DNA from: a virus
Lineage: Duplodnaviria > Caudoviricetes
IMG/VR virus record: IMGVR_UViG_3300026522_000023
Span: 61,781 to 125,780 of that record
DNA: 64,000 bases
Reading direction: 5' to 3' (one strand)
This document shows, in pieces, positions 1-33,149 of the stretch; within the stretch, counting starts at the first letter, position 1; each line of letters begins with the position of its first letter. Under the pieces are notes generated by a model. The model ran no database searches and was not told the origin of the DNA. It was given only the letters and a program-made list of their open reading frames with translations. Both the position numbers and the translations under genes were made by a program.

Positions 1-1440
1 TCCTAATGTATCTTGCGGAGTTAATGTAACATTTAAAAGTCTAACAATAAAATTACCTTCTGCCGGAGATTTAAATAATTTAGGCTTTCCGTTAGTTAAA
101 AATTCTAAAACTTTAGTTTTAAATTGACGCTCTATATTATAATTATAATCTGTTAAATCAGTGCTAGTAAAATCCTTTATTTCATCATTTCCTAATTTAT
201 TTATAAATAAATGACTTTCATCTTGTAAATAAGAAATTAGCCCACCAATAGGAAATTCATGATAATAAGTATTTCCATTACGGAAAATATAAGGATATTG
301 ACTTCCTATAGTATCCATTTTAGTTTCTAAAGTATTAATTTTAAAACTTTCTACTTTAGGATTAAATCTAATTTTTAACAATCTACCATTTTCATATAAA
401 AAGCTATCTTCAAATATACTATAAATTATATTAGATAAAATTTTATTTGAACGCAAAGAAGTTGCATCACTATACTATTGAATAGCATACTGATAAGAAA
501 ATCCATGCTCAACAGTAAAGTCTTTATATAATACACGACTAGGCGCTTCACCAGTTAATTTAAATTTAAGAATAGGATTCCAAGAACTATAGTTATCTTC
601 ACTACTAGCTCTTAAAAGAATAAAAGCTCCAGTAGCAGGAATCTCTGATTTAGTAGCAGCATCTTTAATACCTTTTAAATTAATTTGCGCAAATCCATTA
701 TTTTCATCCATAACTGCTTGTAAAGTAGCACGAATTTCAGGGTCAATCGTTTCTCTATTAATAATACGATATTCAGGACTGGCGGCTTCATAATTATTAA
801 TTGTAGTAACTTTATACTAAATATAATAATTCTTACCTTTAATTAATTCTTTATTTAACTCAAAACTATCATATGACTCATATAACTGTTCATCGTTGAT
901 AGTGTTATGTAGCTATTCTCCAGAAGTAGCAAATATATTGTGGTATTCATCATATACAATAAATTGATAAGAATAAACTCTTTCAGTTACATCACCATTA
1001 TATTGACTATAATGACCAATAAAATTAGTTTTATTAATACCAATACCACCTGGCTCCAATCCTTCAATTTCTACTTTTGGATCTGTAGTATATTTAGTAA
1101 TACCAACTGTAGAATAATATCCTATAACTTTATTATTATCAATATAAGCTAATTGAACCTTATAAGACTACCCTAAATTTAATTGAAAAGCATTGCCATT
1201 AATTTGCTTAAACTTTAATTGGAAAGTAATTGAGCCACTATTAATAGCATCTTGCGCTTGAGATGAAATAATCTAACCTTGCGCAATTACTACATTACTT
1301 TGTATAGTTTTAAATATATAAGCGAATCCACTAACTTCTGCCGCACTTACAGTTTGATTCATCTGGAACGGAATAGTTAATTCCGTTCCAGTAAATGCAG
1401 GTAGCGTTCCACTTATATAAGGCGGATATAATTTATTCAT
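1..1440 (-). CDS. Tail/baseplate-associated protein, runs off the window edge (TAG=Gln)
   Basis: ATG at 1440 with GGAGG RBS (MNKLYPPYISGTLPAF...). In frame with track ORF 475-711, which ends at TAG. Lies downstream of the large tail gene. Confidence 0.65.
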
Positions 1441-1443
1441 AAA

Positions 1444-1605
1444 TTATTCCTCCTCTTGTTTTTGTTGTGTATTATTCTAACGATAAATGAATTCTTTTAA
1501 ACTTTTAATGCATTCTCCCATTAAAATAGTATCTTCACCTTTCGTAGAAATACAAATTAATGTGTTATATAAAGCATTTAAATAATTTAAATCCTCTTTA
1601 TTCAT
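1444..1605 (-). CDS. Small hypothetical protein, 53 aa (one TAG)
   Basis: ATG overlaps the upstream TAA (TAATG) with GGAGG RBS; MNKEDLNYLNALYNTL...; ends at TAA. Confidence 0.6.
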
Positions 1606-4600
1606 TAGTTTTTTTCCTCCTTTAACTCTTTCACTTGAAGCTTTAATTCTTCAATCTCTTTCATTAAATCTTGTGTGACTGCAATATTTAATGTAAATAA
1701 ACTATTATAATTTAATGATAATAATTGTTTTTCATCTTTTTTTATTAAACTATTATCATTTAAATTATTTTCCTGTAAAATATTCTCAATATCCTAAGCA
1801 ATAAAACCTAAATAAGTTCTATCAGATAATTTATATTTATAACTAACAGGTTTTAATTCACTAAATAATTTTTTATAATCATTAATATGATTATAACTAA
1901 TATTAGTTTTTAATCGTTTATCAGATTTTACACTAATTTCTTCGCTAGAGAAACACCCTGAACCTGTTACATAAATCTAATTACCATAATAATAAATAGA
2001 AGCACCACTATTAGAAGCAGCAACATATCCTCCATTAGCAGCATACATCTAAATACCTCTTGTACTTCCTGCTCCGCTACTACCTACATAAGAATACTCA
2101 ATTCCACCATAGCCGCTACGATAAGAATCTAATTTTGAAGCTAAACCATTAATTGCACTCTATGCCTAAGAAGCAGCACTCTATGCCTATTGAGCTGCAC
2201 TAGCAGCAGCATTAGCAGCCTCTTTAGCATCTTCAGCTGTCGTCTATAAATATGTTAAAATTGAATTTAATGAAGTAGTATCATTATTATCAAACCAACT
2301 TAAACGCCCATTTTTATATTTAATATAAATATCTCCATTGAATGTTCCTGTATTAGCCCACACATACCCATTATTTAAATCAATCTTCATACCAATTTTA
2401 CCATTATCAGCATAATTTTTTGATTGTAAATAATAACTATTATTACCAACATTCATTAAAGTATCATATCCAACTGGATCTCGAATAGTCAAATAATTTG
2501 TGCTATTAGCACCGCTATTAATTGTAAAAACTGAACTGCCTTTTATTTTACAATCTAATAAATTACTCTCTAAATTAAGTAACATACCATTACCATTAGT
2601 AATATCATAAGTAGCAGATTTTAAAAGACATTGATTACCATCTAATATAATACGACCTTTACCATCTTTGCCAAAAAATGCCGTACCATCTTCTCTTAAA
2701 GCGAATGACTATTCTCCTTGATGGAATCCATATATGCCACACTAACCACTAATACTATTATCTGATATTGATTCACCATTAGGGCTCCAATCGCCCATCA
2801 ATACACCAGAAAAAGTATTATCATCATTTTTCTTACCGGCAGCAATCTAACTAGCTAAAATGCTTCCGCTTGCTTCATTTAATACTAAAGACTTACCATC
2901 CCATTTATTTATCATAGATGAAGGATACTTATTCTATAATATTAAAATAGGCTAAGTCCATAAAATATTTCCCTAAGCATTTTTACACTGTACCGCATAC
3001 TAAGGAGCACTATTTACATATATTGCTAAAGGATATAAATATGATTTATTATTAATTACTTTAATAATTCCATAAAAATCAGATTCAGCAGTAGAAGTTC
3101 TTCTATAATAAGTTCTAGAATCAGAACTGCTATATACTTTTTCATAATAATTAATTGTTCTATAAGTAGTAGAAATTAAATTATTATTACTATCCTTTAT
3201 ATAATAACTTTCTCCATCTATCGGATTCCCTACAATATCAGTCCCTAAAGTTTTTTTATAATAATTTAATTTATTAAATATAGAATATACATAATTATTA
3301 TTATTTCCAGTCCTAATATAACAATTACTGTAATCAATAATATCACCATTAGGAATTACTTTATAACTATCTTTACTTGAATCTAATGAATATAGTGATG
3401 GTCCAGTATATATAAATTTATACATAATATTATTTTGTTTAAAATAATAGGTAGATAACCGTACTAAATCATTAAAAGTACAAGTAGTAGTTGCACCATC
3501 AGAACTTTCATCTATTTCAGAAGCATAGTATTCTTTAAAATCATAAGAAATTATTGTATTATTTTTAAAAATATAATAGGTGGTATTATATTTCCATGAA
3601 TTTTTATTAACAGACTAATATTTTGTAAAATATAATTCTTCAAAATCAAAAGGATAAATTGCACTATACTAAAACTAAGAATCGCTAGCTAAAAATCTAT
3701 ATTCTTTTCCAGATTCTAAATCACTTATAGAAGTAATTTTTCCTCCGTTAGTGCCATAAAGATTATTTATTAATTTATTATAACTAATAATAGAAGTCTA
3801 ATTATAAGGTCCGCTACTATTAGCACGCTTAGTATTTTTTATAATATATCTTTTATTAGGAATTTTCTAAATATCAATAATAGATAAATCACTTATTTTA
3901 GAATTTTTATCATAACTAATATCTTTATAAATTCCCTAAAGAGTGCTATAATCTTCATTGGAAACATCATAATAAGCATAATATGGAAATTTATCAATTA
4001 AATTATTAATAGAAACAATTACTTTATTAGTTGCTAAATTATAAAATGTTTGAGCATCATAATAAGTAGAAATATAATTGCCTGTAGCTTCATCCTTCTA
4101 AAAATATAATGTTCTATCTATTAAATTATTAGGAGAAACTAAAGTATATTTTATATCCTAACTACTTTGATAAAAAACAGTACTATCTATTGGCAAATAA
4201 AAATTCAACTAATCAATATCATTTGAACTAGCACTTACGTATAAATATTTACCATTATCATCGCGTATATATCCGCTCGATACTTTTTTATATAAATCCT
4301 AATATTTAAAAAGATAAGAAATTGAACCATTTGAATTATAATAAGTTTCATTATTAATTAAATCCCAATAGCTATTAACTAAAGTATATTTATCTTTGCT
4401 AGGATTTAATCTATAATAAGTCTAAGAAATTCCACTATATACAACTTCTGTTACTCTATCTTCAAGATAATATTTTTTTCCTATGGTCGGACTAGAAACT
4501 AATCTAAAAGTCATATTAGAAGATAAAGTAGTTGGAATATAAATATCTTCTCCATTACTATTTTGTTCTTTATAATAATAAGTTTTATATTTTAATTCTT

Positions 4601-6851
4601 CAGATGTTGGATTACATACCGTATATTGATAACCATTAGAAGCTGGATAAATATCCCAATAAATATCTTGAATCTAAGTTAATTGTTTATCATTACCATA
4701 TAATTGATAAGGTTCTTTAGAAAAAACAGCTTCACCATCACTTAAATAAATTACCTAAGTGGGTCCATTAATATAGCTTCCTTGCCCAGAAGTAATTGGA
4801 ATAGGATAATAAGCAGTTAATAAATAATTACCCCAATTCTATAATGTTACTGATAAAATATACATTTTATTCATTAATGAATTTTTATTTAATACTGCGA
4901 ATGTGATTTCATTAGATTTACCAGCTATAGTCTTTAAATTTACATTAGGATCATCTACATTTAAAGACCATATACAATTATAACCACTTAAATCTATTTC
5001 TTTACCAGTATTATCATATAAAGAAGCTCTAAATTTATAATCTTTAATTTCTCCAGAAGTAATAGCAACAATTGGGTTACCAACTTGATCATCAACTAAA
5101 TCAATAACTAAAGTACAATCAGTACCATTCGTGCCGGCTTGTCCAAATGTGAATTCTTTCTTAGCTGTGTATTCAACATTATCGCGCTTAATTTTCGCAA
5201 TAACTGTATTATTTGATTTATTCGCACTATAAAAATTATTTACTTTATATTTAACTATAAAATCTTTATCATTAGGATTATTAGATTTTATCTAATAATA
5301 ATTATTATCATAATCTGTTAAAATCTATCCTTCTAAAGCAAAAGACATCATACTATTTTTTGGCAACAACCATAATACTTCTTGTGCTTCAGTTAATTGG
5401 CTTTCATTTTCACTATTATTTTCCGTCCCATAAGTTTTAGAATTAAAATATAACTGCATAGAACGAACAATTTTATTATCGACAGTATTTAATAAATAAT
5501 TTGCCTAATCATAAATTAAATAATTACCATTAGTCCCATCAATACAATGAATAGATAAAGCATTTAAAACATCAACTGTCGCATCATTAGGCACTAGCAT
5601 ATCATTATTGAAAGTAATTATATTACTATAATAATATTTATTATTGTATCTAATAATAACCTTATATCGCTCATCTTGCTTTTCCGTCCGAGGAGTAAAT
5701 TCATAATTAAACTAATTAGTATTATCTACGAATGTCCAATAAACACCACAGCGTTCATCCGCAGATGGCGCTCCAAAATCATATCTATACCATAGAATTT
5801 CTGCGCCCGCAGGCAATCTACTAATTTGAGATTTATTATTATCATCATCAAAATGAATCCATTTTAAATGAATAGATTTTTTACTAACCTATCCATTAAT
5901 AACTTTATAATTTAATCCATCATTGGTATAAAGTCTTAAAAATTCTCCATTTATTTCATCTAAACCAATACCAAGACTAAAATAAATATTTTTTACAAAT
6001 ATATTATTTGGCAAAATAGAGGTAATACCAGTAGTTCCCTCTGTTAATTGAGTAGGTATTTTCTTATTATCTTTATCATAAAAATTATCATCCTAATATA
6101 AAAATACCTAAACTTTATCTATGCGCGCAAGAGCGCTAATATCAATAACTATTTCCTAAGAATAATATCCTTCAAAATTATATGGATTACCATACATATC
6201 CGAAGTATCTAATCTTACTTTATAAGTACTAGTAGTAGAATTAAATTTTTCCGCAGTAGTTTCTTTTACCCCAGTAATAGCAATTTCTAAACCATAGTTG
6301 CCTTGAACAGTACCTAACTCTTGAAGCCATGCTCTAAAATCTGCGCGCAATCCTAACCGTGTAAAACCTTGACAACTAGATGAAATTTTTATTCCATTAT
6401 TATTCGAATCCTCTTCGTCTATTGGAGTAATTTCAATAAATCTTTCATCACCATTAGCCAAGATACTCCATAAAGATTTATTATTCTAACCGCCAACAAA
6501 CATATTACCAGTTAAATCAACAAAAGTATTAAAAGGATTTACATAATTATATGGCTTATCCTAGCCTTTATCTTCTTTTTTACCAACTATAAATTTAGTA
6601 TTATTAAAATCACCTTTAGGGATTTGAACATATACTCTATTATTTTTATTATAAGTAGTAATTTGGGAGAAAGCATCAAATTCAGAATATGATTCATTCT
6701 TTACTCTATATTGCCCTTTTAATTTATTACTATCATCAATAATCGTACATTCAATAGTATTATCATAAGTAATCTTATCGACTGCCGATTTGGCAATAAT
6801 AGATATAGCTTCGCATATATTTTCCTGAATATTTGTAGCATTATCAGCCAA
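1605..6851 (-). CDS. Large tail tip/fibre protein with C-terminal peptidase S74 intramolecular chaperone, about 1748 aa (TAG=Gln)
   Basis: Track ORFs 6561-6851, 6156-6461, 3000-3425 and 2244-2585 share one frame and each ends at TAG. C-terminus reads SDKRLKTNI...LKPVSYKY...LGFIA*DIE followed by a coiled coil, the S74 signature. Confidence 0.8.
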
Positions 6852-6962: not shown

Positions 6963-6966
6963 CATT

Positions 6967-9900
6967 TTATTTACGATTAGCATATTGCGAAGCTACATTA
7001 ATTAATGTGTTAAATGCTTCTTGAATTTCATTCCTATCAGTTACGTTCGGGAAGCTAGCATCAATATGAACCTATTGTTCTAATATATCATTACCAGTTC
7101 CAAAAGTGTTATAAATTGGATTAATTGGCATTGTAGTATATCTACTGCGCAAATCAATCTCAGAAGCAATTTCACGAACCATCTTAATAGAACTTAGCAT
7201 ATTCTAAGTATCTTCTTTATTAAGAACTAATTCTTTTTCATGAAGCATTGCTAATTTACCACTATCGCCCCATTGACCAGTGTAACCACCAGTTCTAAAT
7301 CCTACTGTCTATTTCCATAACCAATCAGGAATCTGAGTAAAATTAGAATATCCAGCAAAAGGACCTTGACCTAAAGTATATCCTTTTTCGTAAAAAGCAT
7401 TAACACGAGCAGTAGATGCCATATCATTATAATTACCTTCTGACATCTTTCTATCACGATATGCTTTATATTTATTATAAAGTTCCGATCCAACAGGTAC
7501 AGTACCCATTAAAGCAGAATAGTCAACACTTGGATCATAATCATCATAATCAGAAGAAGAACTGTTGGAACCCGCATCCATAGACGCTTGCGCGGCAATA
7601 GCCTATTGAATCTTACTAATAAGCTATTCATAATAAGAAATTAAATTCATAATTTCCTATCTCTAACGAGCATAGGCCTCAGTAGCATTACGAACAGCCT
7701 ATAGCTCCTGAGTTAAAGCAGGAACAACTTTATTAATAACTTCATCCTTCAGTTGGTCACTGGCATTAGTAACATCATTAACTTTATTCTTAGTATCAAC
7801 TAAATCTTTACCTACTAAATCAGTAAGTCTATCAGTTTCAACTTGCCATTCTTGGAAAGCATTATTAATCTAACCGGTATAATCAATAATTGCTGTTTTC
7901 CATTGATCACCACTATCAATGATTTCATCATAAGCATTAACCCAAGCATCTTGAACCACACGAGAATCTTCTTCTTGCGCAATTCTATATAAATCACTAG
8001 AAGCTTGAATTAATTGAGTATATTCATCAATAATTCTCTGGCGGTCAGCTTGATAATTACCTTCACGATAAAGAGCATCTTCATTAGCCTTTTCATCAAT
8101 TTCTTTTAACTTTTCAGCTAATTCTTGTTCATATTGTAATTTCTATTGACCATATTTATTAGTAGCATCAAGGCGAATATTATATAAATCATTCTCAGCA
8201 TCAGCTAAAGCTTGCTAAGCATCATCTATCTTATCCTAATCCGCAGTATAAACATAACCAAAATTACCTTCATTATCGCGCTGTAAGCGGACCTTACCCA
8301 TCGCATTTTGAGCTTCATCTAGGGCAATCTAAGCTTGAAGAACTTTATATTTAGCTTGAGCAATATCCAACTCTAACTAACTTAATTTATCTTTTTCTCT
8401 TAACTATTCGATTTCTTTAGAAAATTGATAATATTTATCTTTTGCTGCTTGATTATTAGTTTTATTACTAGCCTTATTAACATCATTAAGTAATTTATTC
8501 ATCTCATAAATTTGGTTAGTCTTTGTTAAATATTCATCTTGATACTTAGACAATCTATCCAAAGAATCATTTAAAGCGTCCCAACCCATACCATCAGTCA
8601 TTGCTTTATTCATATTCTCTGCGGCTTGTTCCATTTTAGTAGTTAAAACTTCCTTAATGGCTTCACCATATGCTTCAGCATCTGACAGCATTTGTTCTTC
8701 TGCCTCATTGAATTTTGCCACAATAGCATCATAATTCTTTTGTAATAATTCTCTTTCAGCGTCATCACTAGCCTAAGCGAGTGCCGCAGCCGCAGCATCT
8801 CTTTCAGCTTTAAGAGATTCATACCAAGCTTTAGAAGTATCAAACTTATTACGTTTTGTCTAGGCATTACCTTCTAATACAGTTAATACTCTCGTATAAT
8901 CTGTATCTCTTCCCAATAGAGAAAGAATAGAACGATAATGGTCTAATACGCTAGTAAGGTGCTCCATCTAATCAGTATATTTAGATAACTCATCTTCAGC
9001 TAAATCTAAGGTATTACCATAGTATTCAAGCATTTCTTTATCTAAATCTTGAACTGCTTGTAAATTATCTAAAATACTATCATAAGCATTTTGAAGACCA
9101 TCAACATAATCTGCCTGTGTAATTTCTCCATTGGCATAAGAACTTTCTAACTTATTATAGAAATCTTCATAAGAAGACATTTTTCCAAAAGTAGGATCAA
9201 TCTAACCTTGTAAATATCCAAAAGCTTCAGCAGCTTTATAAATATTATCAGATAACTTATTAAAGAAATAATCCAATTTCTTTAATTCATTTTCATCAAG
9301 CTAAACTTTATATTCAACTTCTACGGTAAGTTTTTCATAATTTTTAGCCATGATTTCATCTTGATTATCTTCAATCTGATCTTCTAAGTTCTAAATTAAT
9401 TCAAGAGTTTCTTCATACTATTCAATTAACTTTTTGAAATTCTCAAACTTCTGTTGCGCCTCTTCATAGACCTTTTTAGCATCATCTGTTAGTGCTTTAT
9501 TATATGCTGCCTAAGCTTTCTTTACATCTTCATAAGCCTTATTTAAAGTCTATTCTAAATTAACAAAACCATTTTCATTAAATGAGACTTCATATCCATA
9601 AGTATTATTTTGTAAAGCCTATTTATCTAATACTAAATATTCTTTAGCTTTCGCCAATTTCTTTTCATACTATTTATTTTCTTCTTTTAAAGCATTAATC
9701 TATTTCTAAATAGCTGATACTTTACTAGCGCCATATAATCTATCAACAGCCTTACTGAGTTTATCAACTTTACGTGTAGATTGATCAATTGCTTTATCAT
9801 AATCATGATAACGATCTTTATCCTAATCCCAATCTTTTGTATCTTTTTCTTTTTGAGATCCTCCACCACTACCAGGGGGGCCAGTTAAAGCACCTGGAAC

Positions 9901-12900
9901 AGCAGGAGCAACACTATTAGATTTAGCTTTTAAAGTAATACTTTTAATTTTAGCCATTTTATGAGCCCAAGTATTAGAATTAGGGTTCACATTCTATATT
10001 TCTTTCATTAAATTCTATAATTCAATGAAATCACTAGCGTCAAATTCAATATTTGTATTTAATATAGAATTTAGAATGCCTGCCACTTGATTACCTGTAG
10101 TCTATAAAGATAATAAATTATTTATAGCATTAGCAGTATCTAAACTAATAGATCCATCTTTATTAAAATTAGCATTTTGTAAAGTAGATTCTACCTGTTG
10201 GATTAATCCAGTACATTGACTAGCATCTACACCAACTTCAGCAAATGAATTACTAATTGCTTCAGTCATAGTCTAAGCATTAGTTTTACCTAACATAGCT
10301 AATTCAATGGAAGCCTGGCGCTATTCATCTAAAGTTCCTGTTAAATACTATTTAATTAAATCCCAATGTCCCTTAACAAAATTAGCATCATAATCAAAAT
10401 CTGCTCCAAAAATATCTTTTAAATTTTCAGCAATTGAAGTAAGTTTATCAAAACCTTTATCGCCTTCTTGTTCTTCTTTAGTAAGTTTACTAAACTCAGT
10501 CATTAAGTTATTAATATCACTTGCTAAATTAGTTACTTCGATTTCTTCAATAGCTCTTTTATATTTCTAAGCAGCTTTAGTGGCATCATCAGTGCCTTTT
10601 CGAGCATTGGCCATTTCTTTATTATAAGTAGCCAATGCCTATTGACCTTTTAAGGTTTTTTTCGCTATACTATCATACGCATTAATATCATCTTTAGTGA
10701 TCTAGCCTTTACGCTATGCTTTAGCCAAATCTCCTAAAGTTTCTATTCCTAATTTAGAGACTTCCTAGGCTCTAACAGACTCTTCTAAAGTTTTTTTTGC
10801 CTATTCTATTAAATAAGGATTACCTGTTTCTACGGCATTAACATAATTAGTATAAGCGTCTTCACATTCTTCATACTATAAAGCTAATAAGCTAAGGCCT
10901 TTACCATAATCTTCTTCTCCTAATATATCATTAGAAGCAATTTCATTTTTTAAATCTTTAATAGAAGTTACAGTAGATAAGATACTTGTTTTAGCTTCTT
11001 CAGCATTATTATTTTCCTCTTCCATTGCTGAATCCAAATTTTCATAATCTACTGTCATATTACGGACAGCTCCAGCAATTTCATTTAAAGTATCTTTATA
11101 CATTTGACCATTTTCAGCATCGGCAGCCCAATTGTCAATCTTTCCCTGGTCATAACCCATAGCCTGTAAAAAGTTCAACTACTATTTTACTTTAGAGCCA
11201 TCATATGAATTATCATCAACTTTATAAGCTGATTTACCCAATTCTTCTGTAGTTGTCCCTTGTAAAGCTTGAGTAGCATTTTCCTTCTATGTTTGTAATT
11301 CCACAGCTTTAGACTAAGCATCTTTATAAGCCTATGTAAATTCATCGCGTCTTTGACGCATAACAATATCATAAAAAGCTTTAGCATCTGTAGTTAATTT
11401 ATAAGTGCCATCGGCCATTTTAGTAAAATACTAATCAGCTCCATCACCCAATTTAGCATAATCTTCTGGTGAAATAGTATCTCCTAATTTAAGATTTTTT
11501 ACTATATCATTTATTTCTTTAAAATTAGACTATGCTTTAGATAAAGCATCTGAATCAGCAATTTTATAAATTTCATCCATCTAAGTAATAAATTTACTTA
11601 AATCTATACCTGCTGTAGCAACTCCAACATTATTTAATGCGGATTGAAAATCTTTTAAAGAAGTATCACTAGACCAGTCAATATCGCCAATAACTCCAGC
11701 AACTTTACCAGCATCATCACCAAATTGATTAAGTAAATTATCTATTACATTTAAGCCTTCAGTACCAAATTTATTAAAAATTGCTTCATAAGTCTAAGCA
11801 AATTCAGCTATCTAACTACCACTAATGCCATTATATTTTAGTCCTGTTTTATCATCATTAAGTAATAATTCATCAAATGAATTAGCTAATATGCTATTAC
11901 CTTCTGTATCAGTACTATTCTCACGCCATTTTTTAGAATAAGTTTCTGGATTTAAAGAATCTTCTACTCCTTGTAATCCATCTAAAATAGCCTAACCAAA
12001 CTATGCTCCAGCATCTTCAACTCCTAAAGTGTCTAAAATATTATTAAATTCTTCAGGAGTAAGACCCATTTTTTCAGCCACTATTTTAGCAACATTAACT
12101 CCATTAGTCTCATCACCAATAGCATTCTAAAATTCATTTAACATTTTAGAATCCCATTCTCCCATAAGCTAAGTAACATCAAACTCTTTAGTTTTCTAAT
12201 TAAAATCATTAACCAAAGTAGTTACTTTACCAATTGAGTCTGCGCTAAATTGTGAAAATAGCTATCTAGCTTTATTAGCACTATTACCCATTTGCTAAAT
12301 AGCATCAGAAGCTGCTAATATATTAGCAATTTCATCGCTAGATAAAGTTATTTCTTTACCATCTTTTAAGAATCCAAAAGAACGATTATTATCAGTACCT
12401 TGAACAGCTTTAGCCTAACTTGATGCCGCAAAAATATTCTATCCAGCGTCTTGTAATGCTTTTAAAACATACTAATAAACATCATTTTCAGTACCAGACC
12501 ATCTATTAATGCCACCCAAACTAACAGTTTCCCCTGTAGCTTCATTTACCTAATTAAAAGCATTATTGTGCTCCATTAAGGTCTTATAAAACGCTGTCTA
12601 TGAAGCAATAAAAGCAGCATTTTCCTTAGCGGCAAAATTCTTTTCATCTGAAGTATAATCATCTCCAAGTAATTCATCAGCTTTTAAATTAGCTACTAAC
12701 TCTAATTTAGCCGAAGCTTTATCTGCTTCTGTCGCCATATCTTTAATACTATTTTGCCAAGCTGTTAATTCATTATTAGTAACATTCTATAAATCTATGC
12801 CTAAATTTAATAAATTATTTTTAAATTCTTCTATTGGCATAGATTTACTAAGACTATCTAAATTATCTAAAATAATTTGCTAAATTTCTTTAGAAGTATT

Positions 12901-20736: not shown

Positions 20737-20751
20737 ACACCTTTATCTCCT

Positions 20752-21816: not shown

Positions 21817-22108
21817 GATTTATTTCCTATAATAAATTAATAGCTTCAAAAACAGTTTTACGATAGAAATTAAATTCTGTCTCCTGATTATCTAAGCCTT
21901 CAAGTTTTCCTAAAAGCTATAAGAAAAGGGGTTCAGTACTAAAAATTACACTGAACCCCACGATTTCATTTATGACAGTTTCTAGCTATTTTTGCCAATC
22001 TTCATCATGTTCACGCATTGGAATTAATTTCCATAGTTGGTTGGTTAAGCGTAAACAATTTTTTTCAACACTCTCTTTTGGAATATTAATACCATAACTT
22101 GTTTTCAT
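21800..22108 (-). CDS. Hypothetical neck-region protein, 102 aa (TAG=Gln)
   Basis: MKTSYGINIPKE...LTNQLWKLIPMRE...FYRKTVFEAINLL; overlaps both neighbours; ends at TGA. Confidence 0.6.
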
Positions 22109-23372: not shown

Positions 23373-24479
23373 TTAGATTGTACCATCTAATCTACCATCA
23401 TAGGTAACGACCTTACCAGTGACACCATCATAATTCCAAGTAGCCATCTGACCAACAAGTGAAGTATCGCAGTAAGCGCAAATATTGTTAGCAAGCATGC
23501 AAACAACGCCGACTTTCTTATAAACCTGAATTTCACGAGAACGATCATAACCATGGAATTCATCAACAATGGTATTGCCCTCGAAAGCAATCTTAACAGG
23601 CTTACCATCAGCACCAGTAGGAATAACCCAAGCATAACCAGGATCAATTACCTTACGGCTATTGGTTTCATCTTCGAAGCCCTGCTCAAGAATAATAACC
23701 TGAGTTCCCTTATAAGTAGGAAGACGACCAGTATTCCAAAGCTCAGTCTTCATAGCCTCAGTGTATCTCCAAGCTTCCTGTGGGATCATCTTAACAGCAA
23801 ACTCATAAGTACAATAAATAGTAGGAGTACCATAAGCACGAGCAATAGTAATTAACTTATCCATAGCAGCTTCATCGAAACCAGCAACAGCAACGCGGTT
23901 GGCAGGTGGTAACTGATTGATAGAAGAAACAAGAGCACGAGCAACTTCTTTGTAAATAAGTTCATCCATGCCTTCCATAATGATCTTAGTCATTTCAGCG
24001 AAATCAACACGACCATCAAGGAATTCTTCGAAACCGATTTGAGCGGCTCCGCCGATAGCAGATGTACGAACTTCGAAGCATTCGTTCTCAGCAGGTCCAA
24101 GCTTAAATACTTCATAAATGCCACCAAGACCGACACGAGTTACGAACTGCTTTGCGCGAGCACGAGTCTGTAATGGACGACGGAAAATTGGCTTATCGCC
24201 CTGAGCAAAGGTCTTAACTTCAGCAAACTGATCATATTGCTGAATAACTTTCTTTGGAAGAACTTCATCAAGAGTTTCTTCAATCATAGAGAAAATCTGA
24301 TTCTTATTATCACGATAAAGTGAATAAGTACCAGCTAATTCATTCATTTCTGCGCGAAGAGTGTCATTCAAAGCCTCATAACTTAAATTCTGACCACCAA
24401 AACTATAAGCAGTAGGAGCAGAAGGATCAGCTTTAGCAACAGTCTTCATTAAAGCGACTAAATTTTTTCTATCTAACAT
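23373..24479 (-). CDS. Major capsid protein (TAG-free)
   Basis: 368 aa; follows the protease/scaffold and decoration genes and precedes a strong terminator; codon usage typical of a highly expressed gene. Confidence 0.8.
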   Translation of the reverse strand: MLDRKNLVALMKTVAKADPSAPTAYSFGGQNLSYEALNDTLRAEMNELAGTYSLYRDNKNQIFSMIEETLDEVLPKKVIQQYDQFAEVKTFAQGDKPIFRRPLQTRARAKQFVTRVGLGGIYEVFKLGPAENECFEVRTSAIGGAAQIGFEEFLDGRVDFAEMTKIIMEGMDELIYKEVARALVSSINQLPPANRVAVAGFDEAAMDKLITIARAYGTPTIYCTYEFAVKMIPQEAWRYTEAMKTELWNTGRLPTYKGTQVIILEQGFEDETNSRKVIDPGYAWVIPTGADGKPVKIAFEGNTIVDEFHGYDRSREIQVYKKVGVVCMLANNICAYCDTSLVGQMATWNYDGVTGKVVTYDGRLDGTI

Positions 24480-25431: not shown

Positions 25432-27054
25432 TTATCTAGCGTTTTCATATTTTAACGCAGCTTTTACCCAAGCCGGAATAGATTCATCATCATCTTCACC
25501 ATTATTTAAATTATAAGTAGTAGGCTTGGTTTCTTTATTTTCGTCAAGGTCGAAACTTACCTTGTTGCGAACGCAAATAACAGAAAGCTTTGCTTCAATA
25601 TCATCAACAGAATACTTATCAATATTATCAATGACATCTTTCTTATCATCATCAGATAACATATAGAATTGAGCAATCATAGCTTCCTTATCTTTCTTCT
25701 CAGAAGCAAGTTTGAACTTTCTTAAAGGTTCAATTTCTTCTATTAAAGAATTCTTTTCTGTTTCTAAAGCGGCATATTTAGATTTTAATTCTTCATATTC
25801 AGTTTTTAGTTCTTGATATTCAGTAACATCTTCTAATGAATATTTTTTCTTCTTTTTCTTATCTTCATCATCTTTGTTACCATCATCGTCAGAGTTATTA
25901 CCCTTACCATCAAGATCATCTTTTTTACCAATTGGCTTTTTATCTTTGCCATCTTCTGGATTATTAGAATCATTATCTTTGCCCTCTGATTTATTATCAG
26001 AATTAGACTTATTATCTTTATTATTTTTGTCCTCTTCTTCTGCCTTTTTTTTAGAAGCATATTCAGTTTCATAAGTCTTTACTGCCTCTAAAGAAAATTG
26101 AGGTTCAGCGGCAGGAATATAAGACTCAGTTACTTCAATTAAAGCATCAGCAGGAACAAAACCATCGGTTTCATTTAAAGAGAAATTTAAACGATAATAC
26201 TTATTATCAGCACGATTCTGTAAGACAGCAAACTTCTGAGAATCCTCTTCACATACACCTTCGATAGCATATACTGAACTATAAGTATTGTCAGCATCAG
26301 GATATTTCTCTAAAATGTAATTCCATAAAGAGTTCCATAAGTTATCGCCAATTTCAACAGCATATCTTGAAAACACTTTGGTTCCTCCTTCTTTAATTAA
26401 TTCTTTTAAATCATTCATCATGGAGAATAGCTTTTGCTTAAAATCTTCATCGAATGTAAGACTAAATTTTGTGATTTGAGAGCCTTCAAAACAAGGTTCA
26501 CATTCTTCTCCCAAAATACAAAGCTTAGAGATTATTGCCTCATTTATAATAAAAAACTTTGGCTTACCATTATCATCTTTTGTCCATGTTGCATTTAAAG
26601 TTTTTTCATCTAATTCCATGGATTGATTATTACCTTGGTCTATAATGCGCTGGCACTCAGGATACTAGCCAGTCCAAATATAACCCTCAGTCATTAGATA
26701 TTCATGCTCTACGCCATCATCATTAAATTTCTAGAACCACGCACGCGCACCTAAATCAACAAAACCATAAGGCTTAGTTGTATCTTGGATTTTAAATTGA
26801 CCATTTGAAATATCAATTACACGATTATGTTCTTCAAAATCTCCAGTAGCATCATTATAATAACCAACAATAGGGCTACCTGGTAAAGAATTAGCCATCT
26901 AACGCGCAACTTCTTTAGTAATAATACTACCATTGCGGTTAGGTGTATCTCCGACATAGCACACTTTAATCTAACACTTAGAAATTAAAGGATTAACAGG
27001 AGTAATATTTATAAACTCACAAGGTGTTTCTAATTTAATACTTGTATGTTTCAT
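25432..27054 (-). CDS. Prohead protease/scaffold fusion, 540 aa (four TAGs, all in the N-terminal part)
   Basis: GGAGG RBS; NRNGSII...LPGSPIVG...EEH...EGYIWTG*Y...QSMEL...LCILG...PCFEGS protease-like part, then an acidic coiled-coil tail; follows the portal gene. Confidence 0.75.
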
Positions 27055-27064
27055 CATGTCCTCC

Positions 27065-28750
27065 TTAACTCATTGATTCTTTATTCTAAATAGTTTTACT
27101 ACTCTTTTCGTCATCGGCTTTCTCAGGTCGTCCGGCCGTACCAGAACCGCTTGATGTTTTAGCCGTTGTTGTAGTAATATTTGTTTTCTATGTTCCTGAA
27201 TTATTTTGAGTTTCAGGTTTATTTCTTGAACCTTTTAAGCCCAAAATATCTTCACTACCCATAGTAGAACTCATAAGAGGAGGTATCATAACTTCACTCA
27301 AATGTAATATATCATTCTCAAAATGAACAGCATTTAGAATAAAACTCTAAGAATGGCCTAAGGCAATCTGAGGAAGCATTTTAGAGTATCCTAACTACAC
27401 GTGTTCTTTATATAATTTTGCTAAATTCTAATAATTATATTGTGTAGTTTCAAGCATATAAAATTTAAAATTATATTTACGATTATTGCTATTACGCATA
27501 GCAGTAATTCTATTAAAGAAAATATTGTATTGTAATAAAAGATTGCGCAAATATGATTCGTCATTCAATACTGATTTTTCTAATGCTATATTACCATCAG
27601 TATTAAACAAATTCTATGAAATACCTAAAGAATTATAAACAGTACGTTCTACTTTAGATAAGTCATCAGTAGTTGTTGTAGTATTCCTATCTGCTAAATC
27701 AATAGTATCAACATCAGTAAATGTAGTTAAAACATCAACACCAATACATCTACGCAACATCTCTACAGCATTATGGTGAATATCTAATGCTTCATCAGAG
27801 TCAAAAATTAAATCCCCATTTTTATCCATAGGAAGTTTTTGAACAATAATTTTTAACAACTTCTACATTTGCTTTTTACGATCTAATTCTTGTGCAGCAT
27901 CTAAATCCATAATAGCAGGAATAGAACTGACAAATAATGGCATATCATCATTATTTAAATTAAACTTTACACAATACTGTGGATCTAACATATACCAAGA
28001 TCCAATAGCAGAATCTCTGCCTAATACAATTTCTTCTGATTTTAATTTGCCTTGCTTATATAACATATAACCTTTGGCAAATTCATCAGGGAATAATTTC
28101 AATACTTTCATACGATAATTAATATCGTGGAAAGTATCAAAAAACTTCATATTAAATTCAATAACAGGCATATTATCTACGCTGTATCGAGAACGGCAGA
28201 AGTTAACCGGTAAATCTTGTAAAATTAAATGGTCATTAGAAGGAACTATATATCCATAATAACAGCCTTCTTTAATTACTTTTAAAGATATATCTCCACA
28301 AATTTTCTTAATATAACTACTATCTAAATAATTAAGAGTCTTTGAAAAATCTTTTAATATCTTTTCCTCTTTGACTGTATCATCTAGAATCTCTGGCGCG
28401 ACATACCAATCATATCTATATAAAAAAGCAAAATAATTACAAGTGCGCTCATATATACCATTTACGCTATAAAATAAATTAGATATACGACGCAGTTCCG
28501 GTAAATCATGATCAGCTATTGCTTTATAAATATCTGCTTTACAAAAGCCTTTTTGACCCGGAATATTTATTTTTTGATAATAATCTAAATCTAAAATAAC
28601 ATCATTTAGACTTCTATTACCGACCTTAACTTTTTTATATTCATTAGCAACCGCTGTTCTATACTCTCGATAAGAATCAGTCATATCAAATCCTTTATTA
28701 TGAATTTCTTCAGCACGGACTTGATTTAGGGTTTGAGTTTGATTATCCAA
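27065..28750 (-). CDS. Portal protein, 561 aa (TAG=Gln)
   Basis: Track ORFs 27863-28750, 27614-27859 and 27428-27610 are one frame split at TAG; C-terminal GRP motif; lies between TerL and protease. Confidence 0.8.
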
Positions 28751-28762: not shown

Positions 28763-29119
28763 TTAATAACCTGCTAGTTTCATTATATAATCATAAGAAA
28801 TAAGGTTTTCATCAGTGTATGGAATTTCTATTAATTTAAAATCGTGCAAAGCACAAAAACGTCTCTTTTGATTATCATTATATTGCTATTGGTATAAACC
28901 GCGTTTACCACCAAATTTAGAACTTGCTTCATAATGTTGCTTACCCTAATACTCAATAATAAAATCAATTTTACCATCATCATCAAATATAACGAAATCA
29001 AATCTCAAAGGACGTCCATTTGGACTTCTTAAATCTGGAAATATATATTCCATTTTAAAAGGAAGTCCAGCCTCTTCTAAGATTTCTTCTATTTTTATTT
29101 CTCCTCTAGAAGCACGCAT
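28763..29119 (-). CDS. Vsr/DUF559-like PD-(D/E)XK endonuclease, 118 aa (TAG=Gln)
   Basis: SRGEIKIEEIL...EYIFPDL...LRFDFVI...IIEY*GKQHY...NDNQKRRFC...LIEIPY. Confidence 0.75.
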
Positions 29120-29131: not shown

Positions 29132-30865
29132 TTAATTCATAAAGCACCAATCAGATGCTTTAAATTTCTTACGTTTTTTCTTTTTATCTTCTTCGAGTTT
29201 TAAATAATATAATCCATATTCAAAAGCTGAAAATTTATCCTTTCGGATACCACGATTTGCCTACTTCAGGATAATATTTACTCCTTCAGTTTCTTCACGC
29301 AAATTCATCATTTCTTCTTTTAATATGGAAGTTAAAGTAAATGGTTTTAAATATTCTGCCCTCTATTCAGGTTTCATAGATTGACCAACTTTAGTTGCCA
29401 TTAATTTATTTTTAGCAATACGTTCATCAATAAGAAATTTTACTTTTCCAGAAGACAACTATGAACGCGCAATAGCATGTGCTTCAGTATTAATTGGCGC
29501 ATTTGCTTTCAAAATATACATAGCATCTAGTTCAGTAACAGAAGTCTTATACTTTTTATAGTATCCTTCTTCGTCATTAGAAACACCGAAATCAGGATAA
29601 GTTTCATTAGTATCAGGATCAGTCTAAGATTTAACCATATAGTCAATTAAACCAATACCCATACCATTACCATCTATTACGATCTGACGAGCATTATATT
29701 TATAATATAATTTCTTTAATTTGATAGCCTAATCTTCAAAATGTTCATTTGATAAAGTATAAATATTAACAAGGCTCTTTGTAGCGCCACCTTGAGATTG
29801 CGGAGTTGCTTTAAATACACAAATAACAGAATCACAACCTTTACGTCCAATATCAGCCGCTAAAACATAAAAAGCTAATTTAGAAGAACGACCACTTGCT
29901 TCATATTCAGGCTAATTTAAAATGCGGTTTCTATCAAAAATTTCCGCATTGAAAAATGCGTCTTCAACAGTACCAGACCATTTACTTTCATATTCACGAT
30001 CAAAAGAACTTTCATTGAAAGTACCATCTTGTTTTAAATCTTGAATAAATGATTTAGATTGTAAGCCAATTAATACAGGAATACGCCAAGTACCACCCAT
30101 TATAATTGATTGCTCAGGTTTAATAATTTCCCAGACAAGCAACTGAATTAGCTTATCATAAGGGAATGTATTTTTATATCCAGCAGTAGTAATATAAATC
30201 TAAGATTTATTAAGAGTTTCTTCATCATGTGTTGTGCCATCCATACACATACGAGAAATGTTCATCGTAGGAATAATAACCTAAGATAAAATATCTCCAT
30301 CAACACCAACGCATTCCTCAATAAGACCGCCATGACGACGTTTACCACGAGAAGATTCTCTAGCAGCGATATTATCAAAATAAGAACCATTCTTAAATAC
30401 ATATTTAACATAGTCCTTACCTTCAAGGGTTTGACCACGCCGCCAATCAATTTCTTTATTAAATGCTGGAATCAATGTACAAATTTCTTGTACTTTTTCT
30501 TTAACAATACCTGCGGCCTGTTCCTTACCACCAGAAGTAATAAATAATTTACAACGAGGATAAAGAATAGCTCGGCACATAAGTACCATCATAGATAAAA
30601 ATGATTTAGAATACGCACGAGGAAATACTGCATAGATATATTTATGCCGCATTGCCGCACGCAAAAAGATTCTCTAATAAAAGAATAAATGAAAGTGTTG
30701 GGGACCGCCATCCGGTCCCGCCATGAAATCAATAAATAAATCAGGATATTCTCTCCAGAAGGCAATATACTTACGTGCTTCTGGAATAATACCTCTTAAT
30801 CGCTCTTCTGAAAGACCGACTTTGCGGCGAGAGGCACTTAAATCTAGTAAGTCTTTAAGTGCCAT
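29132..30865 (-). CDS. terL: Terminase large subunit, 577 aa (TAG=Gln)
   Basis: Track ORFs 30674, 30281 and 29912 share one frame. ATPase motifs FPRAYSKSF and RGKRRHGGLIEE; nuclease motifs VLAADIGRKGCDS, VIDGNGMG and KDKFSA. Confidence 0.9.
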
Positions 30866-32040
30866 TAGACTTCTTTACCTTTCGCCATATTTTCATAAGT
30901 TATTTCATCTAAGTCACTTTCATCTTCTAAGAACTAATTATGTTCTATAAAATCTTCATCTTTTAATACTTCTTCATCTAAATTATCTATATCTTCAATG
31001 TCTTCATCTTCTTCACGGTTTTCCTAATCAACCATATTTTTAACGGCAGCTTCAATAAGATTACCAAGATTCATTTCTTCAGTGACTAATGTATGAGTAT
31101 AATTCTTTAAATCATTTAAAGTTTCATCAACTTTATCCATAGGGCCTTCAGTATAATAACGAGGAATAAACCCTTCGCGTTCACACATTTCAACTAATTC
31201 ACTAATAGAATCAAATTCTCCAGAAGATTCAGATTTATTTTGGGCAGCAGTAAATTTACCAGATTTCATTAAACTATCATAAACTTTGCTCATCTTTTGG
31301 AATCCTTCGATATCACCAATATCAATCAGCTAATTCGCTTTCAAAGATGTCTTACATATTAATTTTAATGTATCTTTGTGACCTGCGCCTTGAATATCAT
31401 ATGAAGCCATCATTTCTTCATATAACTACTCTAATTTAACCCATTCTTCAGGTTTATAAGTTTTGCCCCATTTTAATCTTAGATACGTACGATCTTCTTC
31501 AGTTAAGTCTAAATCTTCTTCTGGACCGTTTTGCTAAGCAAAATAATCTTCTTGCGGAACTATGGTAGTATCTTCATATACAGGTTCCTCAAGGGGCTTA
31601 TCAGGCATTGTAAATACTCTGCCTTTTTCTTTTGCTTCCATAATCTGAACTGCGTCATAACCTTGACGTTTCATAGTTTGCTCTAATTTAGCATCTTCTA
31701 ATTCTTGAAGTCGTTCAGTATCTTTCCAACGAGTATCTTTATATTGTTTTAATTTCATTTTAGAAAGATAACGTCCTAAAATAGTAGTTCCTGTTACTTC
31801 ACTTGGATTAGTGGCATATTTCATCATAAGACTTTGCCATTCTTTAGGAACATAAGGAACATCAGCTTCTTGTAAAATCCAAAGATAAGTATCTGGATTC
31901 CAGTTATCAACGTGCATTGTAATACATTTTTTACATTGATTTAATTTACCGGTAGGATACTTTTCTAAATTATTACTGCCATAAAATTCAGAAGCATTCA
32001 TTGTGCGATTACATTTCTCGCAATAATAAGTTTCTGCCAT
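30865..32040 (-). CDS. Zn-finger protein coupled to TerL, possible small terminase, 391 aa (TAG=Gln)
   Basis: CEKC...CKKC N-terminus; fragments 31534-32040 and 31024-31293 are in frame; its TAA overlaps the TerL ATG. Confidence 0.6.
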
Positions 32041-32084
32041 AAAATTTCTCCTTTCATTAGATTATTAGTAATTCATAGAAAGGA

Positions 32085-33149
32085 TTATGATTTTTTGGCC
32101 TTAGAATTTCGACAACATTTACAAATGCTATAAAATCCATCTTTACTGGTTTTATTTTTACTAAAATATTTATTATGAGCTAATTTTATTTCGCCGCATC
32201 TACTACAACGTTTATAATGTCCTTTTTCAACATTTAAATAATACCAACTTAAATATTCATCTTCCGCAGTAGATGCAATTAATTTTGGAATTTTGTTTCT
32301 CCATAGACTAGAAATATACTCAAGACTATGTTTAATACCAAATTCCATTTGGATTTTCTCTTGAATGTCAATATTTTGTAATCCATCAATTTTATATTCA
32401 ACTATTCTATCATATAATGGATAGTCTTTCAAAGCTTTGTCACATAATTTATCAAAATCTTCCATTAAATACCATAAATCTTTTTCATACTCGCCTTGAC
32501 TATCTTGTTTTAATCGAGAATAGTTACATAAAATAGCAGAACAAACGACAGGATCTAATAAACTTACTCCTTCTGGAATCGGATAAACATATCCATCTTC
32601 ATCATCTAACATTTTTACTTCTCCATCTAAAGGAGTTAAACATCTTGAGCGAGTTAATTTATTAGGAATAATTGGTTTGCGGTAAGCATTTTTAATAACA
32701 TACTAATCTTTCCGCATTTCAATTAATGCTTTTTTAATTACAAAAGCATCTTTACCTTCTGTCACTTTCAATTTGGCTTCCCAAGCTGAAATGGCTTCTT
32801 TTAACTATTTTAAATAAGGTATTTCTTCAACATCTTTTTTTGTAATTGTAACTTTTGGCTAAAATATTGTATTTTTATTTTCAGTAATTAAATTATAAAT
32901 TCCATCTTCGCCATTTTCTAGTTGAGAGACAAGACCTTCAAAAGAAGTTTCTCTTTTATTAACTGTAGCCATACGATTTTCAGTTAATAATTTTTTTTCC
33001 TTTTTCTCTTGTTTCTCCATACAAAGAACTAAATAGTCAGCCAAGACTTCTAAATATTTTTCACTTGGTTCAGGATTCTCAGCAAGAATCTTTTTGACTA
33101 ATTCATTTCTCTCTTCTGGAGTTTGTAAAGAATAATCTAACTTTATCAT
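32085..33149 (-). CDS. Putative DNA-binding regulator with an HTH-like segment and C-terminal Zn ribbon, 354 aa (TAG=Gln)
   Basis: Fragments 32859-33149 and 32085-32612 are in frame; RIVEYKIDGLQNIDIQEKI...SLEYISSLW and KRCSRCGE...SICKCC. Confidence 0.6.

What the first reader, a model, noticed from the sequence alone, without database searches (positions are those of the whole stretch)
1..33149. TAG is reassigned to Gln (code 15) across the morphogenesis module
Seen: fragments of essential genes (TerL, portal, TMP, tail) fall in single frames broken only at TAG, and true ends are TAA/TGA, often coupled to the next ATG. The amino acid is readable inside the window. Repeat 1 of the 60623 nuclease has WKC-CAA-CDCGN and repeat 2 has WKC-TAG-CDCGN (60890). 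TAG also sits at expected Gln positions in GFIA*D (1794, S74 domain), IEY*GKQH, IEFDGE*HF (61328) and FTS*ANHL. Known: TAG-to-Gln recoding is established in gut phages. No suppressor tRNA or release factor gene was seen in this window.
Basis: partly seen in the sequence, partly recalled or inferred. Interest (0 to 1): 0.75.

Follow-up and report, generated by a model that had tools for sequence, protein, structure and literature searches.

The report
Gut phage reads TAG as glutamine
This is part of a roughly 200-kb uncultured phage that reads the stop codon TAG as glutamine in its late (virion-building) genes but not in its early genes, which is a well-supported new example of a kind of phage code change that has already been published.

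Summary
Confirmed. The window is the last 64 kb of a 125.8-kb viral contig that CheckV rates 63% complete. With TAG read as sense, frames of 300 codons or more cover 87% of window 1-33149, up from 14%. TGA-sense gives 14% and TAA-sense 22%. The resulting genes include a 3078-aa tape measure (108 TAG), tail fibre, portal and TerL, in the same order as standard-code Enterococcus phage VRE9_4.

The amino acid is Gln:
- In 24 closely related standard-code phages, Gln fills 51% of the cells aligned to our TAGs. Ordinary CAA/CAG Gln is conserved at 56%.
- Against a 97.5%-identical complete genome (G001, 201 kb), 16 of 27 differences at TAG codons are swaps with CAG or CAA.

The contig has no tRNA gene and no release factor gene. 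It ends 3.9 kb before G001's tRNA array, which holds one tRNA(CUA). Seven of 7 recoded relatives carry a tRNA(CUA); 0 of 3 standard-code relatives do.

A block at about 34.6-48.1 kb carries 26 host-type promoters, is nearly TAG-free and has higher G+C. The capsid gene is also TAG-free.

This is a known kind: code 15 phages, and the phAss-1 group (PMC10607447). The extra result is that the code state changed at least 3-5 times within this clade. The scan had already noted the same recoding from another window of this genome.

The parts
1..1440 (-). 5' part of a 959-aa tail-region gene that starts at 1440 and runs off the window. It has 5 in-frame TAG in the window and 14 in the whole gene.
1605..6851 (-). 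1748-aa tail fibre with a C-terminal Peptidase_S74 chaperone domain. It has 39 in-frame TAG and ends in TAA.
6967..16203 (-). 3078-aa tape measure protein. It has 108 in-frame TAG against 93 CAA and 12 CAG, and ends in TAA.
16929..18149 (-). 406-aa protein of the tail region with 24 in-frame TAG.
18399..19397 (-). 332-aa virion structural protein (phrog_2729; likely tail tube by its position). TAG-free.
19421..22667 (-). Four head-tail genes (19421-20152, 20152-20736, 20752-21816, 22086-22667) with 8, 5, 6 and 3 in-frame TAG. The first two overlap by one base at the stop/start junction.
23373..24479 (-). 368-aa YonB-like major capsid protein. It is TAG-free and encodes Gln mostly as CAG (13 CAG, 2 CAA).
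25432..27057 (-). 541-aa head-module protein (phrog_3313) with 4 in-frame TAG.
27065..28750 (-). 561-aa portal protein with 7 in-frame TAG. The PHROG match (residues 35-530) spans 5 of the 7 TAGs.
28763..29119 (-). 118-aa homing endonuclease between TerL and portal with 2 in-frame TAG. VRE9_4 has a gene of the same kind at the same place.
29132..30865 (-). 577-aa large terminase with 9 in-frame TAG. It is 52% identical to VRE9_4 TerL in a single alignment that crosses the TAGs.
30865..33149 (-). Two genes at the head of the minus-strand module: a 391-aa protein (phrog_3314, 5 TAG) and a 354-aa sigma-factor-like protein (phrog_5767, 3 TAG).
34600..48107 (+). Early block. It has 26 near-consensus TTGACA-N-TGnTATAAT promoters, each followed by a ribosome-binding site and a short ORF. 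G+C is 0.39-0.47, against 0.27-0.33 elsewhere. TAG is scarce on the + strand. First ORFs end in TAA (13), TGA (7) or TAG (1).
60623..61483 (+). 286-aa HNH/homing nuclease with internal repeats and 7 in-frame TAG. Repeat 1 has CAA where repeat 2 has TAG.
61654..63513 (+). 619-aa protein with 3 in-frame TAG. It served as the anchor that found the complete relative G001 (95% aa identity).

Best explanation
The window belongs to a roughly 200-kb tailed phage of the SPbeta-like / Enterococcus EF1 / phAss-1 lineage. Judging by its relatives and promoters, it probably infects a Bacillota (Firmicutes) host. The phage uses genetic code 15: TAG is a glutamine codon in its late and structural genes, and TAA and TGA are the only terminators.

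Shown:
- TAG behaves as a sense codon. It is spread evenly along genes, conserved between near-identical genomes, and crossed by homology matches.
- It stands for Gln.
- Early genes behind host-type sigma-A promoters avoid TAG.
- The near-identical complete genome encodes one tRNA with a CUA anticodon in a tRNA array just past the end of this contig. That genome encodes no release factor and no class-Ic synthetase.
- Across relatives, having a tRNA(CUA) goes with having in-frame TAGs (7 of 7 against 0 of 3).

Inferred mechanism: after infection, the TAG-free and more G+C-rich early genes are translated by the host's standard machinery. The phage tRNA array, including tRNA(CUA) charged by a host enzyme, is then expressed. 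It outcompetes host RF1 at TAG, so full-length late proteins can be made only from that point. In this reading the code change works as a translational timer for morphogenesis, and probably lysis, as Borges et al. proposed. The most abundant virion proteins (capsid, tube) stay TAG-free, probably because suppression is less efficient than ordinary decoding.
For: ORF restoration is specific to TAG. Functions and gene order match a standard-code relative.

Gln identity.

TAG is evenly distributed along genes, with decile counts of 42-58. 315 of 333 TAG codons are conserved in the 97.5%-identical G001.

The contig is a 63% fragment that ends at G001:172,712. G001's tRNA array starts at 176,611 and its tRNA(CUA) lies at 186,653-186,727. 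That tRNA folds as a cloverleaf and is 73% identical to one phAss-1 tRNA-Sup-CTA.

G001 has no RF-1 domain and no GlnRS/GluRS.

tRNA(CUA) is present in 7 of 7 recoded and 0 of 3 standard-code near-complete relatives.

The early block has 26 promoters and is TAG-poor. TAG makes up 44% of Gln codons in the late module and 16% in the early/middle block. The capsid gene is TAG-free.

Published precedent: PMC10607447 and bioRxiv 10.1101/2021.08.26.457843.
Against: - The contig itself has no suppressor tRNA. Its presence is extrapolated from a 97.5%-identical genome.
- There is no protein-level evidence.
- The amino acid charged onto the tRNA(CUA) could not be established from the tRNA sequence. Simple similarity to other phage tRNAs was uninformative. 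Its T-loop (GUCGGCA) and U1.C72 mismatch are atypical.
- The host, and therefore its code and its route to Gln-tRNA, is unknown.
- The temporal-gating step is inference from gene layout, not expression data.
- Against Geobacillus E3 alone, Glu scored 1.1 nats better than Gln, on only 33 positions.
Confidence: 0.93

Rival explanations
1. TAG is a sense codon but stands for an amino acid other than Gln. One route: Glu, if the host makes Gln-tRNA indirectly and the amidotransferase ignores the suppressor. Others: Lys, Ser, Tyr or pyrrolysine (ARAGORN labels every CUA tRNA 'Pyl').
For: Glu and Lys are the next most common residues at TAG-aligned positions. Against Geobacillus E3 alone, Glu is marginally ahead. 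Some relatives carry a 90-nt tRNA(CUA) with a long extra arm, a shape typical of Ser/Leu/Tyr tRNAs. The tRNA's isotype was not established.
Against: Gln beats Ser by 21.5 nats and Glu by 22.2 nats with the pooled standard-code references, and beats the next candidate by about 39 nats in each closer relative. The lead is far larger with the 24 standard-code relatives. The invariant YQR, FEDQA and QL columns of TerL hold TAG. There are 16 TAG<->CAG/CAA swaps between near-identical genomes, against 3 with GAA and none with GAG or AAG. Lineages with the 90-nt tRNA also show Gln at TAG columns. 108 pyrrolysines in one protein with no pyl genes is implausible.
Confidence: 0.03
2. The phage does not reprogram anything. 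Its host already reads TAG as sense or lacks RF1, and the phage simply mirrors the host code.
For: The host is unknown. No phage release factor or synthetase was found.
Against: Early genes behind host-type promoters avoid TAG, which would be unnecessary in such a host. The phage lineage carries its own tRNA(CUA), and its presence tracks recoding. Close standard-code relatives end their portal gene in TAG in 19 of 24 loci. I know of no bacterium with TAG = Gln (own knowledge), and Borges et al. predict standard-code hosts for such phages.
Confidence: 0.03
3. The TAGs are real stops: a decayed or defective element, or sequencing or assembly error.
For: None beyond the fragmented look under table 11.
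Against: Only TAG interrupts the frames, never TAA or TGA. A 3078-codon frame free of TAA and TGA in 30% G+C DNA cannot arise by chance. 315 of 333 TAGs are conserved in an independent assembly. 71 of 95 related loci show the same pattern.
Confidence: 0.005

Closest known systems
phAss-1 and the proposed Phassvirus group (OQ749652; Babkin et al. 2023, PMC10607447; NCBI 'Caudoviricetes code 15 clade')
   Same: A human-gut siphophage with TAG = Gln in TerL, portal, a roughly 3100-aa tape measure and the tail fibre. It has tRNA-Sup(CUA) genes inside a large tRNA set and no dedicated synthetase. It is related to Enterococcus phage EF1. Some members of the group have in-frame TAGs but no detected suppressor tRNA. 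One of its suppressor tRNAs is 73% identical to G001's.
   Different: The relationship is distant: TerL about 44% and portal about 40% aa identity. The genome here is about 200 kb rather than 136 kb. G001 has one tRNA(CUA), phAss-1 has three. This phage belongs to a separate, larger clade, with at least 170 IMG/VR contigs matching its capsid protein.
Alternatively coded gut phages of Borges et al. (bioRxiv 10.1101/2021.08.26.457843): Lak, crAss-like, Garnet, Topaz and other clades; metaproteomic proof for crAss-like phages in PMC9523058
   Same: TAG is read as Gln in structural and late genes. Early genes are compatible with the standard code. The phage encodes a suppressor tRNA. Recoded lineages have close standard-code relatives. 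The proposed role is to time late-gene translation.
   Different: The lineage differs (SPbeta/EF1-like siphophage). There is no RF2 and no synthetase. Recoding is very dense, with TAG at 44% of Gln codons in the late module. No proteomic evidence exists for this phage.
Standard-code relatives: Enterococcus phages VRE9_4/EF1/EF5, Geobacillus virus E3, SPbeta-like phages
   Same: The order TerL - homing endonuclease - portal - ... - YonB-like capsid - ... - giant tape measure is shared. TerL is 48-52% identical.
   Different: They have no in-frame TAG. Their hosts are cultured Bacillota.

Membership tests
Code 15 (TAG->Gln) recoded phage | In-frame TAGs interrupt essential genes, and reading TAG as sense (and only TAG) restores full-length genes | tested here: met
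   Coverage by long frames rises from 14% to 87% with TAG-sense, against 14% (TGA) and 22% (TAA). TMP, fibre, portal and TerL are restored and annotated.
Code 15 (TAG->Gln) recoded phage | TAG-aligned positions in homologues are Gln | tested here: met
   50.6% Gln in 24 standard-code relatives; 38 of 84 columns majority Gln; 16 of 27 swaps with CAG/CAA.
Code 15 (TAG->Gln) recoded phage | The genome encodes a suppressor tRNA with a CUA anticodon | tested here: inconclusive
   The 125.8-kb contig has none, but it is 63% complete and stops 3.9 kb before the tRNA array of the 97.5%-identical complete genome G001, which has one tRNA(CUA). Seven of 7 recoded and 0 of 3 standard-code relatives carry one.
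Code 15 (TAG->Gln) recoded phage | TAG is not used as a terminator in recoded genes; early genes are compatible with the standard code | tested here: met
   All selected genes end in TAA or TGA. TAG shows no 3' enrichment. The early promoter block is TAG-poor, with one candidate TAG-terminated early ORF, 43451-43774.
Code 15 (TAG->Gln) recoded phage | Gln is found at TAG positions in the proteins themselves | not testable with these tools
   Needs virion or metaproteome mass spectrometry, as was done for crAss-like phages in PMC9523058.
Proposed genus Phassvirus (phAss-1, ctckW2, ct6IQ4) | High nucleotide identity (80-86% among members) and shared synteny, including the 1665-1733-aa Hoc-like/beta-propeller capsid protein | tested here: not met
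   Only protein-level similarity was found (TerL about 44%, portal about 40%). The genome is about 200 kb. The Hoc-like protein was not searched for specifically. This phage is related at roughly family level, not a member of the genus.
SPbeta/EF1-like siphophages | YonB-type capsid, related TerL and portal, giant tape measure, shared gene order | tested here: met
   Atlas YonB clusters score 0.99. tblastn hits SPbeta-like, Enterococcus and Bacillus phages. Gene order matches VRE9_4.

The most novel reading that the evidence does not exclude
Within this one clade of roughly 190-200-kb phages (capsid protein at least 75% identical), the genetic code has flipped repeatedly. Some standard-code lineages sit inside recoded ones, carry no tRNA(CUA) and have zero TAG in about 5,700 late-gene codons. 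These may be reversions from code 15 to the standard code, meaning loss of the suppressor and replacement of every sense TAG, rather than repeated gains. TAG positions are shared between recoded lineages on both sides of these standard-code groups (gene-stratified odds ratio 2.7-4.3), which fits an ancestral recoding. The diversity of suppressor tRNAs (52-84% identical, three shapes) fits repeated gains instead. The direction of change is unresolved.
Probability: 0.3. Interest if true: 0.6.

Novelty: new member of a known kind. Interest (0 to 1): 0.35.

Why it matters
For annotation: under table 11 this contig and at least 70 related IMG/VR and MAG contigs are cut into fragments and their essential genes are missed, so they must be called with table 15.

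For biology: it adds a large, well-sampled clade of roughly 200-kb Bacillota-type siphophages to the known code-15 phages. The layout is unusually clean: a TAG-free, G+C-richer early block behind host promoters, TAG-dense late genes, and TAG-free capsid and tube genes.

The clade contains recoded and standard-code members that are very close relatives, and suppressor tRNA presence matches code state in all ten genomes checked. That makes it a good natural system for asking how a phage gains, and perhaps loses, a codon reassignment. The phenomenon itself is already established, so a specialist would not be surprised.

Tried and rejected
- Pfam gave almost nothing on the structural genes. PHROGs was informative.
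- ARAGORN at lowered thresholds gave only noise on the contig. Rfam found nothing in the window at gathering thresholds.
- I first suspected that the 12-kb G+C-rich stretch (36-48.5 kb) with no long ORF in any code might hide odd tRNAs, a long RNA or a third code. No stop reassignment opens it. It turned out to be an array of strong promoters with short early genes.
- A PDB sequence search did not identify the capsid protein. The ESM Atlas did.
- I tried to assign the suppressor tRNA's isotype by similarity to 272 phage tRNAs. The result was uninformative, so the Gln assignment rests on protein alignments, not on the tRNA.
- I looked for CAG enrichment at our TAG columns in standard-code relatives, as a trace of recent TAG<->CAG change. 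None was found: 25.7% against 26.5%.
- MAG bin labels of related contigs (Clostridium, Mollicutes, Lachnospiraceae, Treponema, Muribaculaceae and others) are free phage contigs binned by chance and were not used as host evidence.
- A fixed-pattern search for the anticodon arm missed divergent suppressors and was replaced by Rfam plus ARAGORN.
Full report
**What the window is.** The window is the last 64 kb of a single 125,780-bp IMG/VR viral contig (G000:C1:61781-125780). The contig has no terminal repeats, and CheckV rates it 63% complete. G+C is 0.27-0.33, except for a block at about 36-48 kb with 0.39-0.47.

**Checking the observation.**
- Under table 11, window 1-33149 holds ten ORFs of 150 aa or more, about 23% of the stretch. 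With TAG read as sense, it holds 19 abutting minus-strand ORFs covering about 96%.
- Counting stop-to-stop frames of 300 codons or more, coverage of 1-33149 is 14% under table 11 and 87% with TAG as sense. It is 14% with TGA as sense and 22% with TAA as sense, so the gain is specific to TAG.
- The largest frame, 6967-16203, has 3078 codons, 108 TAG and no TAA or TGA. The fibre gene 1605-6851 has 39 TAG.
- Every gene ends in TAA or TGA, and several ends overlap the next ATG by one base.
- Recoding reaches beyond the stated coordinates. 48 of 57 ORFs in the 61.8 kb upstream of the window carry TAG, as do 60623-61483 and 61654-63513. Roughly 33.3-60.6 kb is largely spared.

**What the genes are.** PHROG and Pfam matches identify:
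- a tape measure protein
- a tail fibre with a Peptidase_S74 chaperone domain
- virion structural proteins
- portal
- a homing endonuclease
- large terminase
- a sigma-factor-like protein

The 368-aa gene 23373-24479 is a YonB-type (SPbeta) capsid protein. tblastn places TerL and portal among Enterococcus (VRE9, EF1/EF5), Geobacillus E3, Bacillus and SPbeta-like phages, and the recoded gut phage phAss-1. The order TerL - homing endonuclease - portal - ... - capsid - ... - tape measure is the same as in standard-code Enterococcus phage VRE9_4. Homology matches run straight across the TAGs. For example, TerL residues 10-548 align to VRE9_4 in a single piece.

**Which amino acid.** Four independent lines point to Gln.
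1. *Pairwise tblastn with X at each TAG.* Gln is the commonest aligned residue in all four references. It is the maximum-likelihood identity with the pooled standard-code references, 21.5 nats ahead of Ser and 22.2 ahead of Glu. It leads by about 39 nats in each of the two closer relatives.
2. *TerL alignment.* Three of the nine TAG columns (YQR, FEDQA, QL) are invariant Gln in four relatives, and 22 of 36 cells are Gln.
3. *Clade-wide alignment.* The capsid protein retrieved 95 related loci of about 20 kb each. Twenty-four of them have no in-frame TAG in about 5,700 aligned codons. In those standard-code relatives, Gln fills 50.6% of the cells aligned to our TAGs, close to the 55.7% self-conservation of our CAA/CAG glutamines. 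Gln is the majority residue in 38 of 84 TAG columns, followed by Lys (6) and Glu (6).
4. *Near-identical genome.* The complete genome G001 (IMGVR_UViG_3300045988_151351, 201,031 bp, terminal repeats) is collinear with this contig, with 84% aligned at 97.5% identity. Of 333 comparable in-frame TAGs, 315 are conserved. Of the 27 codon differences that involve TAG, 16 are exchanges with CAG or CAA. No other codon appears more than three times.

TAG is spread evenly along genes, as expected for a sense codon.

**The missing suppressor.** The contig has no tRNA by ARAGORN or Rfam and no RF-1 domain. It ends at G001 position 172,712. G001 carries 31-33 tRNAs in two plus-strand arrays. One array begins at 176,611, which is 3.9 kb past the break, and it contains a single tRNA with a CUA anticodon at 186,653-186,727. 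That tRNA:
- folds as a cloverleaf
- is 73% identical to one of the phAss-1 tRNA-Sup-CTA genes
- has U1.C72, G2:C71, G10 and G73. From my own knowledge of E. coli GlnRS identity elements, these fit a Gln acceptor, but this was not tested.

G001 has no release factor and no GlnRS/GluRS, so charging must be done by a host enzyme.

Across ten near-complete relatives, the 7 recoded genomes each carry at least one tRNA(CUA), and the 3 standard-code genomes carry none. These suppressors come in several shapes: 71-76 nt, and a 90-nt form with a long extra arm. They are only 52-84% identical to each other. In every recoded lineage, TAG columns are still mostly Gln in the standard-code relatives.

**Layout and likely mechanism.**
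- Window 34.6-48.1 kb carries 26 near-consensus TTGACA / TGnTATAAT promoters on the plus strand. Each is followed by a ribosome-binding site and a short ORF.
- That block is G+C-richer, has few TAG on the coding strand, and prefers CAG to CAA. Its first ORFs end in TAA (13), TGA (7) or TAG (1: 43451-43774, where read-through would add 14 codons).
- TAG makes up 44% of Gln codons in the late module and 16% in the early/middle block, and part of that 16% comes from doubtful antisense ORFs.
- The capsid, tube and three other structural genes are TAG-free.

The inferred sequence of events is as follows. Early genes are read by the host's standard machinery. The tRNA array, which is co-oriented with and downstream of the early/middle genes in G001, supplies tRNA(CUA). 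Only then can late proteins be completed. This is the model of Borges et al.. It is not demonstrated here.

**Comparison with what is known.** TAG-to-Gln recoding in gut phages is established. The phAss-1 paper (PMC10607447) describes the same picture in a distant relative, including group members that have in-frame TAGs but no detected suppressor tRNA. This phage is not a Phassvirus, because TerL is only about 44% identical. It is a new member of the known kind.

**An extra result at clade level.**
- Of the 95 related loci, 71 are recoded (6-17 TAG per 1000 codons) and 24 are not, with nothing in between.
- On trees of three TAG-free structural proteins, the code state needs 5-6 changes by parsimony, and well-supported branches force at least 3-4.
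- AU tests reject trees that hold either the in-group standard-code rows or the recoded rows together (log-likelihood differences 231 and 234). The caveat is that these groups were named after the tree had been seen.
- Standard-code relatives really do terminate at TAG: the portal gene ends in TAG in 19 of 24 loci.
- TAG positions are shared between recoded lineages more often than expected within Gln columns (gene-stratified odds ratio 2.7-4.3 in the nearer clade). That could mean an ancestral recoding followed by reversions, or a site preference for TAG. The diversity of the suppressors argues for repeated gains. The direction remains open.

**Earlier notes of this scan.** One note (e1-5914792) records the same recoding from another window of this genome. 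Another (e1-5914807) describes the promoter cassettes of the early block. I had found both independently before reading them.

**Verdict.** It is a solid but unsurprising instance of a known phenomenon. Its practical value is for annotation, and it offers a clade that is well suited to studying how codes change.

Noticed in passing
window 34600-48107 (+): A 12-kb block with G+C 0.39-0.47, no long ORF in any code, and 26 near-consensus extended -10 sigma-A promoters, each followed by a ribosome-binding site and a short ORF. It prefers CAG over CAA, unlike the rest of the genome. Early genes may be tuned to host tRNAs and late genes to the phage's own tRNAs. Another agent of this scan has already followed up the promoter cassettes.
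   Followed up: partly
window 43451-43774 (+): This is the only early ORF behind a strong promoter that ends in TAG. The next in-frame stop is TGA at 43817, so suppression late in infection would add 14 residues. It may be a case of TAG serving as a stop early and as Gln late.
   Followed up: no
L048-L142 (95 related loci); G002-G010: The code state is bimodal: 71 recoded loci and 24 with zero in-frame TAG. It changed at least 3-5 times on the structural-gene tree. tRNA(CUA) is present in 7 of 7 recoded and 0 of 3 standard-code genomes. Standard-code relatives end the portal gene in TAG in 19 of 24 loci.
   Followed up: partly
L180:1570-1659(-), L182:1283-1372(-), L190+L191 joined:20170-20259 (G008:20170-20259), L002:44442-44532(-): Some recoded relatives and phAss-1 carry a 90-91-nt tRNA(CUA) with a roughly 19-nt extra arm after the anticodon stem, a class-II-like shape. 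TAG still aligns with Gln in those lineages. How a Gln identity coexists with a long variable arm is unexplained.
   Followed up: partly
L037:8465-8536 (G001:178465-178536): ARAGORN calls a 72-nt tRNA with a four-base anticodon (gtag) next to tRNA-Leu(UAG). G005 and G006 each have a tRNA called with a two-base anticodon (tt). These may be odd anticodon loops or tool artefacts.
   Followed up: no
window 32085-33149 (-): A sigma-factor-like gene (phrog_5767) with a C-terminal zinc-ribbon/HNH-like tail heads the late minus-strand module and itself contains 3 TAG. If it drives late transcription, suppression would gate late expression at two levels.
   Followed up: no
window 29132-30865 (-): Two short PHROG families (15503, 245 positions; 24618, 230 positions) each match one half of this TerL. 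They seem to be built from split terminase genes such as Enterococcus phage EF1/EF5, where the TerL match is in three pieces around an HNH homing endonuclease.
   Followed up: no
L004 (MT836163.1, 12.3-kb human faecal fragment): This is the closest GenBank phage record (TerL 62%, portal 53% aa identity). It is unannotated and has no in-frame TAG in the aligned genes, so it is a standard-code relative.
   Followed up: partly
window 23373-24479, 24497-25408, 18399-19397, 16334-16867, 22688-23281 (-): Five structural genes inside the TAG-dense module have no TAG at all. Two of them (capsid and the gene upstream of it) encode Gln mostly as CAG. This is consistent with avoiding the suppressed codon in the most highly expressed proteins.
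   Followed up: partly
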